Assembly (NCBI RefSeq): GCF_988243305.1 | Contig: NZ_OZ547136.1 | Length of the DNA stretch: 64,000 nucleotides | Strand: one strand, 5' to 3' | Part shown: in pieces, positions 56,950 to 64,000 of the stretch | Layout of the letters: each line of letters begins with the position of its first letter | Numbering within the stretch: the first letter of the stretch is position 1 | The notes under the pieces: generated by a model | Databases searched by the model: none | What the model was told of the DNA's origin: nothing | The model's input: only the letters and a program-made list of their open reading frames with translations | Made by a program: the position numbers and the translations under genes

Positions 56950-57987
56950 ATGTTTTCCGCATTGCGCCACCGTACCGCTGCCCTGGCGCTCGGCGTATGC
57001 TTTATTCTCCCCGTACACGCCTCGTCACCTAAACCTGGCGATTTTGCTAATACCCAGGCACGACATATTGCTACTTTCTTTCCGGGACGCATGACCGGAA
57101 CTCCTGCAGAAATGTTATCTGCCGATTATATTCGCCAGCAGTTTCAGCAAATGGGTTATCGCAGTGATATTCGGACATTTAATAGTCGGTATATTTATAC
57201 CGCCCGCGATAATCGCAAGAGCTGGCATAACGTGACGGGAAGTACGGTGATTGCCGCTCATGAAGGCAAAGCGCCGCAGCAGATCATCATTATGGCGCAT
57301 CTGGATACTTACGCCCCGCTGAGCGATGCTGACGCCGATGCCAATCTCGGCGGGCTGACGTTACAAGGAATGGATGATAACGCCGCAGGTTTAGGTGTCA
57401 TGCTGGAACTGGCAGAACGCCTGAAAAATACGCCTACCGAGTATGGTATTCGATTTGTGGCGACCAGTGGTGAAGAGGAAGGGAAATTAGGTGCTGAGAA
57501 TTTACTCAAGCGGATGAGTGACACCGAAAAGAAAAATACGCTGCTGGTGATTAATCTCGATAACTTAATTGTTGGCGATAAATTGTATTTCAACAGCGGC
57601 GTAAAAACCCCTGAAGCAGTAAGGAAATTAACGCGCGACAGGGCGCTGGCAATTGCGCGTAGTCATGGAATTGCCGCAACGACCAATCCGGGTTTGAATA
57701 AAAATTATCCGAAGGGTACTGGCTGTTGTAATGACGCCGAAGTTTTCGACAAAGCCGGTATTGCCGTACTTTCGGTAGAAGCAACAAATTGGAATCTTGG
57801 GAATAAGGATGGTTATCAGCAACGCGCAAAAACAGCTGCATTCCCTGCGGGAAATAGCTGGCATGACGTAAGACTGGATAATCAACAACATATTGATAAG
57901 GCACTTCCAGGAAGAATAGAACGTCGCTGCCGTGATGTTATGCGGATAATGCTACCGCTGGTGAAGGAGCTGGCGAAGGCGTCTTGA
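56950..57987 (+). CDS. iap: Alkaline phosphatase isozyme conversion aminopeptidase (M28 family)
   Basis: 345 aa with signal peptide, recognised as Iap. Confidence 0.93.
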   Translation: MFSALRHRTAALALGVCFILPVHASSPKPGDFANTQARHIATFFPGRMTGTPAEMLSADYIRQQFQQMGYRSDIRTFNSRYIYTARDNRKSWHNVTGSTVIAAHEGKAPQQIIIMAHLDTYAPLSDADADANLGGLTLQGMDDNAAGLGVMLELAERLKNTPTEYGIRFVATSGEEEGKLGAENLLKRMSDTEKKNTLLVINLDNLIVGDKLYFNSGVKTPEAVRKLTRDRALAIARSHGIAATTNPGLNKNYPKGTGCCNDAEVFDKAGIAVLSVEATNWNLGNKDGYQQRAKTAAFPAGNSWHDVRLDNQQHIDKALPGRIERRCRDVMRIMLPLVKELAKAS

Positions 57988-58007: not shown

Positions 58008-60414
58008 GGGAGTTCTACCGCAGGGGCGGGGAACTCCAAGTGATATCCATCATCGCATCCAGTGCGTCCGGTTTATCCCCGCTGACGCGGGGAACTCCGT
58101 GTGGGAACTACGAGTAGGCCGTTTTCTCTCGGTTTATCCCCGCTGGCGCGGGGAACTCCAATATCCGCGCCGTACCCAGCAAATGCTGACGGTTTATCCC
58201 CGCTGGCGCGGGGAACTCTACCGCATATTCACCAAAGTCCTCTATTTTGTCGGTTTATCCCCGCTGACGCGGGGAACTCGAGCGGACGCTCGACGATAAC
58301 ACCGATTTGCAAGGTTTATCCCCGCTGGCGCGGGGAACTCCAATATCCGCGCCGTACCCAGCAAATGCTGACGGTTTATCCCCGCTGGCGCGGGGAACTC
58401 TACCGCATATTCACCAAAGTCCTCTATTTTGTCGGTTTATCCCCGCTGACGCGGGGAACTCGAGCGGACGCTCGACGATAACACCGATTTGCAAGGTTTA
58501 TCCCCGCTGACGCGGGGAACTCCCGTCAGGCCGCGTCAATCGTTTAGCCCACGGCGGTTTATCCCCGCTGACGCGGGGAACTCACATGGAGTACATCATG
58601 AACAGACCACTGACCCGGTTTATCCCCGCTGACGCGGGGAACTCAGATTTTAGATGAGATGAAGTTGAATAGTTTACGGTTTATCCCCGCTGACGCGGGG
58701 AACTCATAAATCATTCTTTTCTTTCATCACCTACGACCGGTTTATCCCCGCTGACGCGGGAAACTCCTGTAGACGTTCTTTGGTAATGGTTTTCATCACG
58801 GTTTATCCCCGCTGACGCGGGGAACTCAATACTACAAACATCAAATGCGTTATTTACTGCGGTTTATCCCCGCTGACGCGGGGAACTCTAAGCCGTGACG
58901 AGGGTCGCCGCTGGCGTCAACGGTTTATCCCCGCTGACGCGGGGAACTCTTACAGATGTAATAAATCACACATGTAATAGCCGGTTTATCCCCGCTGACG
59001 CGGGGAACTCGATCGGGAGGATTTTAAACGCTGGTCAATGGCCGGTTTATCCCCGCTGACGCGGGGAACTCAATTACCGGGTGTCTAGTGCTCATACGCA
59101 GCCCGGTTTATCCCCGCTGACGCGGGGAACTCAATTACTGGGTGTCTCGTGCTCATATGCAGCCCGGTTTATCCCCGCTGACGCGGGGAACTCTTTCCCC
59201 CATGCGGGAAGCGCGTGCGATTTCGCGGTTTATCCCCGCTGACGCGGGGAACTCTTTTAGGTGTGCTGAGATTATTTGTCGCGGCGCGGTTTATCCCCGC
59301 TGACGCGGGGAACTCTTATCAGCAGCCAGACCAGCATTCGGGGAATACGGTTTATCCCCGCTGACGCGGGGAACTCATGATCAAATCAGTGCCGAGCTGG
59401 TGCAGATGCGGTTTATCCCCGCTGACGCGGGGAACTCAAAACAGGTTTGCCTGTCGCCCTCCGGTCCACCGGTTTATCCCCGCTGACGCGGGGAACTCCA
59501 ATCCGTTTATTACTTTATTTCTGCCGCCTTCGGTTTATCCCCGCTGACGCGGGGAACTCCAACGTTTTGGTAATCAACGGAAGGAGCTTCGCGGTTTATC
59601 CCCGCTGACGCGGGGAACTCAATAAATTCAGGAGCGGTAACGATATATTTAACGGTTTATCCCCGCTGACGCGGGGAACTCGTAAAGGCGTTGCCCTGTT
59701 CCGTCGCTGTTGTCGGTTTATCCCCGCTGACGCGGGGAACTCATCCGTTAATTATTGAGAGAGCTATCAGCTATCGGTTTATCCCCGCTGACGCGGGGAA
59801 CTCACCATCAGTCCTTGAGCCGAGAAAATCGCCGCCGGTTTATCCCCGCTGACGCGGGGAACTCAGCTATATACGGGAGCAAGATTATAATATCTGCGGT
59901 TTATCCCCGCTGACGCGGGGAACTCTTTCGCCCAATCTTGCGCGCTCTGACCTATCTGGGTTTATCCCCGCTGACGCGGGGAACTCGTGGGTGGCTGCCG
60001 TCGCGGCTGGTGCTGCGGCGGTTTATCCCCGCTGACGCGGGGAACTCACTGAGTATTTGCCTCAAGTGATGTACTGGTCCGGTTTATCCCCGCTGACGCG
60101 GGGAACTCAATATCGCCGTCAATGCCAATATTTTTCCGCGCGGTTTATCCCCGCTGACGCGGGGAACTCGTGAAAATAGAGGAAGGGCGCATTATTGGCG
60201 GCGGTTTATCCCCGCTGACGCGGGGAACTCGCGTCAGAAGCGATTGAATCAATAGCGGATCACGGTTTATCCCCGCTGACGCGGGGAACTCGTCCATTTT
60301 CCCCCTGGAGGCTGTAATTCACCGCGGTTTATCCCCGCTGACGCGGGGAACTCTTATTCAGCCAACGCGGCGCGGGGCTTGTTTGCGGTTTATCCCCGCT
60401 GACGCGGGGAACTC
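58008..60414 (-). CRISPR. Type I-E CRISPR array: 39 full 29-nt repeats plus one degenerate terminal repeat, 39 spacers (31-33 nt)
   Basis: Repeat CGGTTTATCCCCGCTG(A/G)CGCGGGGAACTC at about 61-bp period, i.e. GAGTTCCCCGCG(T/C)CAGCGGGGATAAACCG on the transcribed strand. The degenerate repeat is at the iap end and the AT-rich leader at the cas2 end. Confidence 0.97.
58130..58493 (-). repeat. Tandem duplication (2 x 182 bp) of a three-spacer/three-repeat block inside the CRISPR array
   Basis: Spacers CAATATCCGCGCCGTACCCAGCAAATGCTGA, TACCGCATATTCACCAAAGTCCTCTATTTTGT and GAGCGGACGCTCGACGATAACACCGATTTGCA occur twice in the same order, each copy with the same GGC/GGC/GAC repeat variants; ORF-track peptides are duplicated accordingly. 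Confidence 0.95.
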
Positions 60415-60519
60415 TCTAAAAGTATACATTTGTTCTTAAAGCATTTTTTCCCATAAAAACAACCCACCAACCTTAATGTAACATTTCCTTATTATTAAAG
60501 ATCAGCTAATTCTTTGTTT
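60415..60519 (-). promoter_or_regulatory. CRISPR leader (AT-rich) with array promoter
   Basis: AT-rich segment between the last repeat and the cas2 stop; sets array polarity. Confidence 0.8.
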
Positions 60520-61723
<1,204 letters not shown>

Positions 61724-61738
61724 TTTATTACACCTAAA

Positions 61739-62338
61739 TCACAGTGGAGCCAAAGATAGCAAGCCACATCCCATCGATTTAGCTGGCCCAATACCTTGCT
61801 GTACAAGATCTATTAACGCTGGCGCGTCGTTGATGGTGATCACCCCTTCAAAGCAAACCGTTTGAATCTTTCCACTTTTACCATCACCAGAAAAATACTG
61901 TGGCCGTTCCGATATGGGATGCACATCTTCAACGCGCGCCGCATTGCCCAATTTACGTTGCAACCACGCGATTTGTTCTGCTTCTTTTATTAACGGAACC
62001 CGACAGCGTTTAATATTCCCTTTACTATCCAGGCGCTTTTGATTGTCGAGAATAGTTTTGATCGGATTTGCCCGAAGCCGAAAATAGAGTGGAACACCAA
62101 CCTGAAGTTGAAATTCAACCTGTTTAGTTTTAATGACTGTCGCAACAGCAGTTGAAACAGGCATTTGCGCTGACTGCAATAAAACATGACAGCCTTCTGG
62201 TGTGTTTCGCTTCTCAACATGAAAAAGAAAATCACGAGCAGCATCCGGTCTGTTTGGAAATAAATGCCATAATCCCTGGTGAAGTTGGTAAAGATCCCTG
62301 CTCCAGGCCCTGGCAATGATGACTTTACTGAGATACAT
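61739..62338 (-). CDS. cas6e: Cas6e (CasE) pre-crRNA endoribonuclease
   Basis: 199 aa recognised as CasE. Confidence 0.95.
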   Translation of the reverse strand: MYLSKVIIARAWSRDLYQLHQGLWHLFPNRPDAARDFLFHVEKRNTPEGCHVLLQSAQMPVSTAVATVIKTKQVEFQLQVGVPLYFRLRANPIKTILDNQKRLDSKGNIKRCRVPLIKEAEQIAWLQRKLGNAARVEDVHPISERPQYFSGDGKSGKIQTVCFEGVITINDAPALIDLVQQGIGPAKSMGCGLLSLAPL

Positions 62339-62999
62339 CCATACCTCCTTTAATCACATACCATTCTCGGGAAGCAAATTGTCGAGGTAAGGTGATCATC
62401 GGTTCGTCGCGCGCCGTAAATTTTAAATGATGCCCTGTAACTGATTCCTCACTATAAATATCGCCGCCAACGGGCTCATAATTTAATAGCGCCTTCTGAG
62501 GATCCGATGCCTGACATGTCCCCAAAAAAAGCGGGTGTGTTAGTGGGCAACTTCTCCGCCCCAGGTAGGGTGTATACCGAGGCTTTAATACTGCTTTTTC
62601 AAGTTCTGAGATAACCATCGTTGCATGGGGTGTTAACCAGAGAGCGACGGTAAAGGAGGCATCACATAAATATTCGCGCCATGTTTGAATCGTTTCATGA
62701 CTTTTCAAACCACGGTAATCTTCTCGCGCTCCAAGGACTGTATGGTAATCACGCAACCCCGTTACAGACACACGACGATCGTCAAGAATGAGTTCATCGC
62801 AGCGCACTGCAAATTGCACACTCTCTGATAACACCTGTAATGAAGAAGTATCATCACGTTGGATCCCAAGACAAGCCCCGAGTAGCCCTAATAACCCGCT
62901 TCGGGTCGGAAAACTTCCGGTAGGTCGCGTTCCTTCAAAGGTCGGCAGCCCCCAGGCTTGCATTGGCCCAGCAAGCCGCAAGATCAAATAAGATCTCAT
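62325..62999 (-). CDS. cas5: Cas5e (CasD) Cascade subunit
   Basis: Start trimmed to MRSYLILRLAGPMQAWG. Confidence 0.94.
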   Translation of the reverse strand: MRSYLILRLAGPMQAWGLPTFEGTRPTGSFPTRSGLLGLLGACLGIQRDDTSSLQVLSESVQFAVRCDELILDDRRVSVTGLRDYHTVLGAREDYRGLKSHETIQTWREYLCDASFTVALWLTPHATMVISELEKAVLKPRYTPYLGRRSCPLTHPLFLGTCQASDPQKALLNYEPVGGDIYSEESVTGHHLKFTARDEPMITLPRQFASREWYVIKGGMDVSQ

Positions 63000-63001
63000 G
63001 T

Positions 63002-64000
63002 TCATGCCTCGCCATTATTACGAACCCAGGATTTTAACTGTTCTAAAGTAGGCATTTGTTTAACTTGAGCAGTAATTGGGTCTACATCAGATAAGCTGAA
63101 TTGCGCAGCAGCTCCGTTCAGACCATATCCATTGGCAACGCGATCCCAATATTGATTAAACGCCTGTATAGACGGTTGCAAAAAGCCATCTTTCGCTTTA
63201 ACAGCTTTTTCAAAAGCATTTGCCATAGAAAGTGGCATATCGGAGAAATTAACCATTACCATATCCGCAGGGTTAAAAGCGGCATAAGTACGCTGTTTTG
63301 CTCCAGGGACCTCTGTTGCCAGCATATGAACAACATTGGTTGCAATTTCCAGAGCCTGCTCCCTGGAGGCACCACCTAAATTTTCCTGAAGTTGAGCGAG
63401 GTTAATGTTGGCGTAACGATAAAAAACACCCGATGAAAATTCCTGAGTTCCCAGATGTGCAGAACCTTGTTCCTGTAAATCATCTACAGCGGTGAACCAG
63501 TCAATATCTGAATCAACCTGATGAGTAGTGATCGCATGCGCAATGGACATTGCACCATCAACTTTTCCCAACTCACTCATCATGCCGCTGGTTGCCATTC
63601 TTCCGCTAAGCGCAATATCAACACCCTGCTGTAAATTCACACGTATGGCGGCAATATCTTCCTTAAGAACTTTGAGCAGCTTTTTATCATCCAGATTATC
63701 AGCCTCTGCTTTTGCAACCTGCTCACAGAACCAGGCTATTTCTCCCACAACCCAGGGAGTAACCGCATCGGCAGAAATCTTTTCGGCTTCATCAACTAAT
63801 TTACCGGAGAGCAGCGCTAATGTCTTATCGATGATTTTTTGGTCAAAACGTTCACCAAGTTTTTGCCGAAGAACATCACGTAATTGTGCAAGATGAATTG
63901 TTCTGAGACTGGATTCACCAATATTTTGTGCGTAATAATCACTTTTACGCATCGCACGTTTAAGGCTTTGACTTGAAATTCTTACTCGTCTTTTCCCGCC
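63002..64000 (-). CDS. cas7: Cas7e (CasC) Cascade backbone subunit, 5' end beyond the window
   Basis: C-terminal 316+ aa of a CasC-like protein; the frame is open to the window edge. Confidence 0.85.

What the first reader, a model, noticed from the sequence alone, without database searches (positions are those of the whole stretch)
58008..60519. Long array with repeat-variant gradient; spacer targets, including possible self-targets, are unchecked
There are 39 spacers, with the leader at the cas2 side. Leader-distal repeats carry the CTGGCGCGGGG form and the rest CTGACGCGGGG. Single-base repeat variants occur at about 58312 and 58494 (first base A), 58738 (GCGGGAAACTC) and 59958 (first base G), and one spacer is 33 nt (about 60292-60324). 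I could not test by eye whether any spacer matches this chromosome or known mobile elements.
Basis: seen in the sequence. Interest (0 to 1): 0.4.

Follow-up and report, generated by a model that had tools for sequence, protein, structure and literature searches.

The report
E. coli CRISPR array, one self-derived spacer
This is an ordinary E. coli type I-E CRISPR array aimed mostly at temperate phages, but one of its 36 different spacers is a perfect copy of the bacterium's own cellulose gene bcsE, inserted backwards so that the immune complex most likely cannot recognise the chromosome.

Summary
The array is real: 40 repeats (39 good ones plus a degenerate terminal one) and 39 spacers at 58008-60414. 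It is transcribed on the minus strand from a leader at 60415-60519, next to cas2-cas1-cas6e-cas5e-cas7e. This is the E. coli iap-side type I-E CRISPR1 locus.

Only four repeats carry the G form. That leaves 36 unique spacers.

The "first-base" repeat variants are PAM-derived nucleotides. For spacer S8 the prophage protospacer has PAM AAC, which explains the C.

Spacer targets:
- S8, S14, S21, S23 and S24 match prophage or phage DNA 32/32, with AAG (four) or AAC (one) PAMs in the predicted orientation.
- S30 matches Salmonella plasmids 30/32.
- S17 (59377-59408) matches the chromosomal gene bcsE 32/32 in 5112 of 5426 complete E. coli genomes.

At the bcsE site the PAM position reads GCG, which shares its -2 and -1 bases with the repeat's own CCG. 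An AAG abuts the other end on the opposite strand. This is the signature of a spacer inserted in flipped orientation, so it is probably tolerated and inert.

The host's own bcsE and its cas3, casA and casB lie outside the window. This is a known kind of system and of modest interest.

The parts
58008..60414 (-). Type I-E CRISPR1 array: 40 repeats of 29 nt and 39 spacers (36 unique). Spacers are numbered S1 (leader-proximal, 60354-85) to S39 (58037-68).
60415..60519 (-). AT-rich leader between cas2 and the first repeat, 100% identical to the leader of E. coli NY1601.
58008..58036 (-). Degenerate terminal repeat (GAGTTCCCCGCCCCTGCGGTAGAACTCCC as transcribed). The same sequence is found in NY1601 and Z1323HEC0462.
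59377..59408 (-). Spacer S17, CATCTGCACCAGCTCGGCACTGATTTGATCAT as transcribed. It matches chromosomal bcsE 32/32 (33/33 if the preceding G is counted). At the target the PAM position reads GCG, and an AAG abuts the other end on the opposite strand.
58131..58494 (.). Exact tandem duplication of 182 nt (58131-58312 = 58313-58494), so S37-S36-S35 equal S34-S33-S32. The junction repeat at 58312 is a hybrid: first base A with a G-form body.
   Evidence: NY1601 has a single copy.
58130..58218 (-). Two ancestral G-form repeats (canonical K-12 loop GCCA) at 58130-58 and 58190-218. Their duplicated copies lie at 58312-40 and 58372-400. All other repeats have the loop GUCA.
   Evidence: The variant lies in the tetraloop and the folding energy is unchanged.
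59926..59958 (-). Spacer S8 plus the variant repeat base at 59958 (C as transcribed). The prophage protospacer has PAM AAC, so this base is the PAM -1 nucleotide.
58462..58494 (-). Spacer S32 plus the variant repeat base at 58494 (T as transcribed). Its duplicate is S35 with base 58312. The base travels with the spacer whatever the repeat body, and it is also present in NY1601. No protospacer was found.
58738..58766 (-). Repeat with C>U at stem position 6. This gives a G-U wobble and the hairpin is retained (-12.2 against -15.1 kcal/mol).
60292..60324 (-). S2, a 33-nt spacer. No target was found.
58341..58371 (-). S34, a 31-nt spacer. Its duplicate S37 lies at 58159-89.
59072..59164 (-). S22 (59072-103) and S21 (59133-64) are adjacent and differ at 3 of 32 positions. 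S21 matches two IMG/VR phage contigs 32/32 with PAM AAG.
59560..59591 (-). S14. It matches a prophage tail-module gene 32/32, PAM AAG.
59011..59042 (-). S23. It matches the exonuclease gene of a lambdoid prophage 32/32, PAM AAG. It also matches phages BUCT708 and BUCT709 30/32.
58950..58981 (-). S24. It matches an intergenic region of a lambdoid prophage 32/32, PAM AAG. It also occurs on one IMG/VR contig.
58584..58615 (-). S30. It matches a small gene on Salmonella IncFIB plasmids 30/32, PAM TAG.
60520..60804 (-). cas2e, 94 aa, open.
60806..61723 (-). cas1e, 305 aa, open.
61739..62338 (-). cas6e, 199 aa, open.
62325..63005 (-). cas5e, open.
63002..64000 (-). cas7e, the C-terminal 332 codons. 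It is open, runs off the window, and is identical to NY1601 Cas7e over this part.
56950..57987 (+). iap aminopeptidase gene, convergent with the array. It marks the E. coli CRISPR1 site.

Best explanation

How the system works (inferred from what is known of this family, not shown here): the array is transcribed on the minus strand from the leader next to cas2. Cas6e cuts the transcript at the 7-bp repeat hairpins into 61-nt crRNAs. These load into Cascade. Cascade binds DNA that matches the spacer and carries a 5' AAG-type PAM, and then recruits Cas3.

What the sequence shows: the spacers record encounters with temperate phages and a plasmid. Five exact protospacers carry AAG or AAC in the predicted orientation.

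The repeat oddities are ordinary products of array history:
- The last repeat base before S8, and probably the one before S32/S35, is the PAM -1 nucleotide brought in with the spacer.
- Two old repeats keep the canonical GCCA loop. Newer repeats copy a GUCA variant.
- Unequal recombination between repeats duplicated three units.

Spacer S17 was captured from E. coli chromosomal bcsE. Its 32 nt coincide exactly with an AAG-flanked protospacer on the bcsE coding strand, but the spacer sits in the array in the opposite orientation. The resulting crRNA therefore addresses the site from the side where the PAM position reads GCG. That trinucleotide has C:G at -2, as does the repeat's own CCG, and E. 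coli Cascade rejects this. The most likely outcome is no binding, no Cas3 recruitment and no priming. S17 would then be a tolerated, functionless passenger, further shielded by the usual H-NS silencing of this operon in E. coli.
For: Array anatomy:
- Array structure and periodicity.
- Cas2e, Cas1e, Cas6e, Cas5e and Cas7e all score above the NCBIfam cut-offs.
- The repeat hairpin is kept, and the A/G variant lies in the loop with the same energy.
- The leader and cas region are 99.97% identical to NY1601. That strain has full-length cas3, casA and casB.

Orientation and PAM convention, verified independently:
- S23 AAG.
- S24 AAG.
- S21 AAG.
- S14 AAG.
- S8 AAC, with the matching C as the last repeat base.

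S17:
- It matches bcsE 32/32 in 5112 of 5426 complete E. coli genomes. A further 210 genomes have one or two mismatches.
- Flanks are GCG|protospacer|CTT in K-12 and in NY1601.
- No complete genome carries S17 in an array, in this orientation or in the interference-competent one.
- Flipped insertion with a downstream CTT is a documented adaptation error, as is loss of orientation control for off-register spacers (PMC4027179).
- A review of PAM recognition states that E. coli Cascade rejects G on the target strand at -2 (PMC6546366).
- 36 of 64 PAMs, including the repeat's CCG, support neither interference nor priming (PMC6568314).
- S17 is 17th from the leader. S8 and S14 are phage-derived spacers with good PAMs that lie closer to the leader. 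The lineage therefore seems to have kept adapting while carrying S17.

Duplication and repeat variants: NY1601 has the same variant repeats with the same spacers, in single copy.
Against: - The host's own bcsE is not in the window and the source genome could not be traced. Co-occurrence of spacer and protospacer is therefore inferred from the 94% prevalence and from the nearest relative.
- I could not read the class of GCG in the published 64-PAM screens, because the lists are only in figures. Its inertness rests on the -2 rule and on its similarity to CCG.
- As a 33-mer, the insert is one base off an exact flip. An exact flip predicts ...ACC + 32 nt + C, whereas the array reads ...ACCG + 32 nt.
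- A CTT after a random 32-mer has a chance of 1 in 64, so the evidence for flipping is modest.
- cas3, casA and casB lie outside the window.
- Position in the array is not a strict clock, because related arrays show rearranged spacer order.
- H-NS silencing is taken from knowledge of K-12 and was not tested here.
Confidence: 0.72

Rival explanations
1. S17 is a true autoimmune spacer. Cascade can act on bcsE, and the lineage survives only because of a compensating change elsewhere. That change could be a mutated or deleted protospacer in this strain's bcsE, a defective cas3 or Cascade gene beyond the window, or complete transcriptional silencing.
For: - The match is perfect and includes the seed.
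- 314 of 5426 genomes lack a perfect protospacer: 104 have no match and 210 have one or two mismatches. Such escape states therefore exist in the species.
- cas3, casA and casB and the host bcsE are unseen.
- Escape by target mutation or cas loss is the outcome I recall being reported for self-targeting spacers generally (Stern et al. 2010).
Against: - The PAM position is GCG in both genomes read. It shares with the self PAM CCG the -2 base pair that Cascade rejects.
- All five cas genes visible in the window are open.
- The cas region is 99.97% identical to that of a strain with an intact operon.
- Phage-derived spacers with good PAMs lie leader-proximal to S17.
Confidence: 0.15
2. S17 has been co-opted as a regulator. 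Its crRNA is complementary to the bcsE coding strand and mRNA. Cascade binding (as in CRISPRi) or crRNA-mRNA pairing would lower BcsE levels and so tune cellulose and biofilm production.
For: - The crRNA would be antisense to the bcsE mRNA. bcsE is on the opposite strand to the crRNA-identical sequence.
- As I recall, Cascade without Cas3 cutting has been shown to repress transcription when it pairs with the non-template strand inside a gene. That paper appeared in the search list (PMC4288209) but I did not read it here.
Against: - Cascade binding needs a PAM, and GCG is predicted to be rejected.
- The spacer is found in no other of 5426 complete genomes, so nothing suggests it is conserved or selected.
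- The literature search turned up no link between bcsE and CRISPR.
- Type I-E is not known to target RNA.
Confidence: 0.04
3. S17 was not taken from the cell's own chromosome. It came from incoming foreign E. coli DNA, such as an Hfr or conjugative transfer, a transducing particle, or a mobile element that carried a bcs fragment.
For: - Short "phage" records and "plasmid" records contain bcsE fragments.
- As I recall, spacer capture favours DNA ends and replicating foreign DNA.
Against: - The "plasmid" hits are mislabelled chromosomes of 4.8-4.9 Mb or small unverified contigs.
- No true mobile element carrying this bcsE segment was found.
- The source of the DNA does not change the consequence, because nearly every E. 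coli carries the same 32 nt.
Confidence: 0.09

Closest known systems
E. coli K-12 CRISPR I (iap-side, also called CRISPR2.1) with the type I-E cas operon
   Same: - Same chromosomal site: cysD-iap | array | cas2-cas1-cas6e-cas5e-cas7e.
- Same 29-nt repeat and hairpin, and 32-nt spacers.
- Same degenerate terminal repeat and AT-rich leader.
- AAG PAM.
- The terminal spacer S39 is shared with thousands of E. coli genomes.
   Different: - Most repeats carry a loop variant (GUCA instead of GCCA).
- There are 39 spacers. The 12 I recall for K-12 is also the number analysed for that strain in a paper seen.
- Apart from a few spacers shared with other arrays, the spacer content matches no array in 5426 complete genomes.
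Arrays of E. coli NY1601 (NZ_CM135959.1) and Z1323HEC0462 (NZ_CP148331.1)
   Same: - The cas region and leader are 99.97% identical to NY1601.
- NY1601 shares S18, S21, S22, S31-S34, S38 and S39, with the same repeat variants.
- Z1323HEC0462 shares S9, S12, S13, S23, S25 and S39.
   Different: - Neither strain has S17 or the 182-nt duplication.
- Z1323HEC0462 has the shared spacers in a different order.
- The leader-proximal spacers differ in all three strains.
Self-targeting CRISPR spacers (the class surveyed by Stern et al. 2010, from memory). Touchon and Rocha 2010 report E. coli spacers that match the strain's own prophages or plasmids (PMC2886076).
   Same: A spacer with full identity to DNA resident in the same species' chromosome.
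   Different: - The target here is a core, non-mobile gene (bcsE), not a prophage or plasmid.
- The target lacks a usable PAM.
- Residence of the target in the same cell is inferred, not shown.
Flipped and slipped spacers produced by Cas1-Cas2 in E. coli (Shmakov et al. 2014, PMC4027179)
   Same: - The protospacer is followed by CTT, which is an AAG PAM on the opposite strand.
- The orientation gives a crRNA with no functional PAM.
   Different: - Those cases were seen in laboratory adaptation experiments against plasmids. This is a natural array with a chromosomal source.
- The 33-nt insert is one base off an exact flip.

Membership tests
Type I-E CRISPR-Cas, E. coli CRISPR1 array | 29-nt partly palindromic repeats spaced about 61 nt apart, with 32-nt spacers | tested here: met
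   39 repeats have at most 2 differences from the consensus. Spacers are 32 nt, except one of 33 nt and one of 31 nt that is present twice. The 7-bp stem hairpin folds at -15.1 kcal/mol.
Type I-E CRISPR-Cas, E. coli CRISPR1 array | Adjacent subtype-specific genes cas2e, cas1e, cas6e, cas5e and cas7e | tested here: met
   All five score far above the NCBIfam cut-offs (TIGR01873, TIGR03638, TIGR01907, TIGR01868, TIGR01869). All are open.
Type I-E CRISPR-Cas, E. coli CRISPR1 array | cas3, cse1/casA and cse2/casB present and intact | not testable with these tools
   They lie beyond the window end. NY1601 has a 99.97% identical cas region, and it and Z1323HEC0462 have full-length genes.
Type I-E CRISPR-Cas, E. 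coli CRISPR1 array | AT-rich leader on the cas2 side and a degenerate repeat at the far end | tested here: met
Type I-E CRISPR-Cas, E. coli CRISPR1 array | Protospacers flanked 5' by an AAG-type PAM, with the -1 base becoming the last repeat base | tested here: met
   Four of five exact mobile-element protospacers have AAG. The fifth has AAC, and the repeat before that spacer ends in C.
Type I-E CRISPR-Cas, E. coli CRISPR1 array | Match to a curated CRISPR repeat RNA family | tested here: not met
   Rfam returned no match at gathering score. This is uninformative, because protein and repeat evidence decide membership.
Type I-E CRISPR-Cas, E. coli CRISPR1 array | Transcription and Cas6e processing into crRNAs | not testable with these tools
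   The simple sigma-70 scan found no consensus promoter in the leader. Expression data are needed.
Self-targeting spacer | Spacer identical to a non-array locus in the same genome | tested here: inconclusive
   S17 matches bcsE 32/32 in 5112 of 5426 E. coli genomes and in the nearest relative. The host's own bcsE is outside the window and the source genome was not traceable.
Self-targeting spacer | The target carries an interference-proficient PAM, that is, the spacer is potentially autoimmune | tested here: not met
   The PAM position reads GCG in K-12 and in NY1601. G on the target strand at -2 is rejected by E. coli Cascade (review PMC6546366).
Flipped spacer (Shmakov et al. 2014) | An AAG PAM on the opposite strand abutting the PAM-distal end, that is, CTT downstream | tested here: met
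   ...GATCAT|CTT in K-12 and in NY1601. The 32 nt coincide exactly with the AAG-defined protospacer on the coding strand.
Flipped spacer (Shmakov et al. 2014) | The same 33-bp fragment (PAM G plus 32 nt) inserted in reverse, putting C at the spacer's 3' end | tested here: not met
   The array reads ...AACCG + 32 nt + GAGTT. The 33-mer is shifted by one base from an exact flip. This fits a flip combined with a slip, or retention of the repeat's G.

The most novel reading that the evidence does not exclude
S17 is not a dead passenger but a domesticated guide. Weak, PAM-independent Cascade binding, or pairing of the crRNA with bcsE mRNA, dampens BcsE and hence cellulose and biofilm output in this lineage. 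This would be a natural case of type I-E CRISPR regulating a host gene.
Probability: 0.03. Interest if true: 0.7.

Novelty: new member of a known kind. Interest (0 to 1): 0.3.

Why it matters
One spacer is chromosome-derived, and the rest that can be placed point to temperate phages and a plasmid.

The S17 case is a tidy natural example of how self-derived spacers can persist. The surviving copy is in the orientation that leaves the target without a usable PAM. The interference-competent orientation is seen in none of 5426 complete genomes.

The array also shows in a wild strain several effects known from laboratory adaptation experiments:
- a PAM-derived last repeat base;
- off-register and flipped spacers;
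- duplication mediated by the repeats.

None of this changes what is known about type I-E systems.

Tried and rejected
- Whole array against 5426 complete E. coli genomes. No genome has this array. The roughly 74% "hits" are repeat-driven.
- S39's "plasmid target" is not a protospacer. It is the same ancestral spacer in an iap-CRISPR-cas locus carried on IncHI2 plasmid pIOMTU792.
- The S17 "plasmid" hits are mislabelled chromosomes or chromosomal fragments.
- The Stenotrophomonas phage hit for S23 (30/32, PAM AGC) is weaker than the exact hit in an E. coli prophage (against 37, 39).
- IMG/VR exact scans for S1, S2, S3 and S32 found nothing.
- The scan of species-representative genomes for S17 found nothing, even in bcsE. 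It therefore gave no route to the source genome.
- Tracing the source assembly failed. The iap protein allele is too common, and two spurious ORFs inside the array are not on record.
- I could not read the class of the GCG PAM in the 64-PAM screens. The lists are only in figures, and other key papers are not held.
- A literature search for a link between bcsE and CRISPR found none.
- The Rfam scan and the consensus promoter scan of the array and leader were uninformative.
- I considered that the array is oriented the other way, which would make S17 canonical. I rejected this because five independent protospacers, the leader and the degenerate terminal repeat all agree on minus-strand transcription.
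Full report
**What is there**

Window 58008-60414 is a CRISPR array with a 61-nt period. It has 39 well-conserved 29-nt repeats (58069...60386) and a degenerate terminal repeat (58008-36), which gives 39 spacers. On the plus strand the repeat reads CGGTTTATCCCCGCTGACGCGGGGAACTC. Its reverse complement, GAGTTCCCCGCG(U/C)CAGCGGGGATAAACCG, is the E. coli type I-E repeat.

The surroundings are as follows.
- The gene iap (56950-57987, plus strand) lies to the left, after cysN and cysD.
- An AT-rich leader (60415-60519) lies to the right.
- Beyond the leader, on the minus strand, come cas2e, cas1e, cas6e, cas5e and the C-terminal 332 codons of cas7e. All are open and score far above the NCBIfam cut-offs.
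- The left flank is at best 99.0% identical over 24 kb to complete E. coli genomes.

The host is therefore E. coli, from a lineage not closely represented among 5426 complete genomes. No complete genome has this array. I number the spacers from the leader: S1 is 60354-85 and S39 is 58037-68.

The "gradient" is not.
- Only four repeats (58130, 58190, 58312, 58372) have the G form. The repeats at 58069 and 58251 have the A form.
- An exact 182-nt tandem duplication (58131-58312 = 58313-58494) repeats three spacer-repeat units. S37-S35 equal S34-S32, so there are 36 different spacers.
- E. coli NY1601 has a cas region and leader that differ from the window at 1 of 3586 positions. It carries S31-S34, S38 and S39 with the same repeat variants but in single copy.
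- The pattern is therefore two ancestral canonical repeats, doubled by unequal recombination between repeats. The junction repeat at 58312 is a hybrid, with the first base of one parent and the G-form body of the other.
- The A/G difference falls in the tetraloop of the hairpin and leaves the predicted stability unchanged (-15.1 kcal/mol). The variant at 58738 makes a G-U wobble.

**The "first-base" variants are PAM nucleotides**

As transcribed, these are the last base of the repeat, immediately before a spacer.
- S8 is preceded by C. Its exact protospacer, in the tape-measure gene of an HK97-like prophage, is flanked by AAC.
- S32 and its duplicate S35 are preceded by T, whether the repeat body is A form or G form. 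The same T precedes S32 in NY1601.

This matches the known E. coli rule that the PAM -1 base is integrated together with the spacer.

**Spacer targets**

- No spacer matches elsewhere in the window at up to 7 mismatches.
- Against 50,697 phage records, the only hit below E = 0.01 is S23, at 30/32.
- Against E. coli genomes and IMG/VR, five spacers have exact protospacers in prophages or phage contigs:
  - S23, lambdoid exonuclease gene, PAM AAG.
  - S24, lambdoid intergenic region, PAM AAG.
  - S14, tail-module gene, PAM AAG.
  - S21, two IMG/VR contigs, PAM AAG.
  - S8, PAM AAC.
- S30 matches Salmonella IncFIB plasmids at 30/32 with PAM TAG.
- These hits independently confirm the transcription direction and the PAM convention.
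- The remaining spacers have no match in the collections searched.

**The self-derived spacer**

S17 (59377-59408) reads CATCTGCACCAGCTCGGCACTGATTTGATCAT as transcribed.
- It matches bcsE 32/32 in 5112 of 5426 complete E. coli genomes. bcsE is the c-di-GMP-binding cellulose biosynthesis gene. Another 210 genomes have one or two mismatches, and 104 have no match.
- No other spacer behaves like this. With S17 removed, the median is one matching place per genome, and that place is the shared ancestral spacer S39.
- In K-12 the site reads GCAAGCG|protospacer|CTTCAAAC. In NY1601 it reads GCAGGCG|protospacer|CTTC.
- The PAM position is therefore GCG. It shares its -2 and -1 bases with the repeat's own CCG. 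A review of PAM recognition states that E. coli Cascade rejects G on the target strand at -2 (PMC6546366). In a 64-PAM screen, 36 PAMs including CCG supported neither interference nor priming (PMC6568314). I could not read whether GCG is named among them.
- On the opposite, coding strand the same 32 nt are preceded by AAG (TTTGAAG|ATGATC...). This is the signature of a spacer taken from a canonical protospacer but inserted in inverted orientation, an error documented for E. coli Cas1-Cas2 (PMC4027179). As a 33-mer the insert is one base off an exact flip.
- No complete genome carries this spacer in an array, in the observed orientation or in the interference-competent one.

**Most likely mechanism**

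The array works as a standard type I-E memory. Transcription from the leader, Cas6e processing, Cascade loading, PAM-dependent R-loop formation and Cas3 recruitment are all inferred from the family, not shown here. S17 is an adaptation accident from chromosomal DNA. It persists because its crRNA meets the chromosome without a usable PAM, and probably also because the operon is normally silenced. S8 and S14, which are phage-derived spacers with good PAMs, lie closer to the leader than S17. This suggests the lineage kept adapting after acquiring it. Array order is not a strict clock, however: Z1323HEC0462 has shared spacers in a different order.

**Limits**

- The host's bcsE, cas3, casA and casB are outside the window.
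- The source genome could not be traced.
- Co-residence of S17 and its target is inferred from the 94% prevalence and from the nearest relative.
- The autoimmunity-escape rival therefore keeps about 15%. A regulatory role keeps a few per cent, and a foreign-DNA origin of the spacer about 9%.

**Verdict**

This is a new member of a well-known kind. The self-derived, flipped spacer is a neat natural illustration of known adaptation errors and of PAM-based self-tolerance. It is not a new mechanism. Interest 0.3.

Noticed in passing
window 59743-59774 (S11); L010 2501-2532: S11 sits here in the CRISPR1 array. The identical 32 nt occur as a spacer in the CRISPR2 (ygcE-queE) arrays of many other E. 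coli strains, for example FDAARGOS_497, in the same orientation. Touchon and Rocha 2010 found no spacer shared between the two loci in 51 genomes. This points to repeated capture of one hot protospacer or to exchange between arrays.
   Followed up: partly
L008 10972-11400 (E. coli Z1323HEC0462), compared with window S9-S39: The related array has the shared spacers in the order S9, X, S23, S25, S12, S13, S39. In the window, S12 and S13 lie leader-proximal to S23 and S25. Block duplication followed by deletions could explain this, and the window holds a live example of such a duplication.
   Followed up: partly
window 59499-59530 (S15); L009 about 2503-2534 (E. coli A30): S15 begins with AAG. 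It overlaps a spacer of strain A30 that starts 3 nt further on, immediately after that AAG. S15 looks like an off-register capture of a protospacer that A30 captured canonically.
   Followed up: partly
window 59072-59103 and 59133-59164 (S22, S21): Two adjacent spacers differ at 3 of 32 positions, and both are also adjacent in NY1601. Only the S21 version was found in IMG/VR. The pair looks like two captures of the same site from two variants of one phage.
   Followed up: partly
L005 (NZ_LC542972.1, plasmid pIOMTU792, 243937-249968): A conjugative IncHI2 plasmid carries an iap-CRISPR-cas2e-cas1e-cas6e-cas5e segment. This means a chromosomal type I-E locus of E. coli has been mobilised onto a plasmid.
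   Followed up: no
one search hits NZ_OL790696.1, NZ_CP141089.1, NZ_CP134663.1, CP061233.1, NZ_CP069933.1: Several records in the plasmid collection are 1-4.9 Mb E. coli chromosomes or chromosomal fragments. One is a 24.8-kb "Klebsiella oxytoca plasmid" whose bcsE matches S17 32/32, as E. coli bcsE does. These are probably mislabelled or contaminant records.
   Followed up: no
L007 (Stenotrophomonas phage vB_SmeS_BUCT708, 29118-33149): A phage deposited with a Stenotrophomonas host carries the same exonuclease plus Gp157 module as an E. coli lambdoid prophage. It matches S23 at 30/32.
   Followed up: no
(genome-contig scan): The exact 32 nt of S17 were not found in any species-representative genome, although 94% of complete E. 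coli genomes have them in bcsE. Either the E. coli representative has a variant site, or the scan missed it.
   Followed up: no
window 58101-58481 (+) and 59377-59547 (+): Spurious ORFs of 126 and 56 codons run through the array. The second starts at the ATG of S17. Gene callers could mistake them for genes, but neither is on record in the protein collection.
   Followed up: yes
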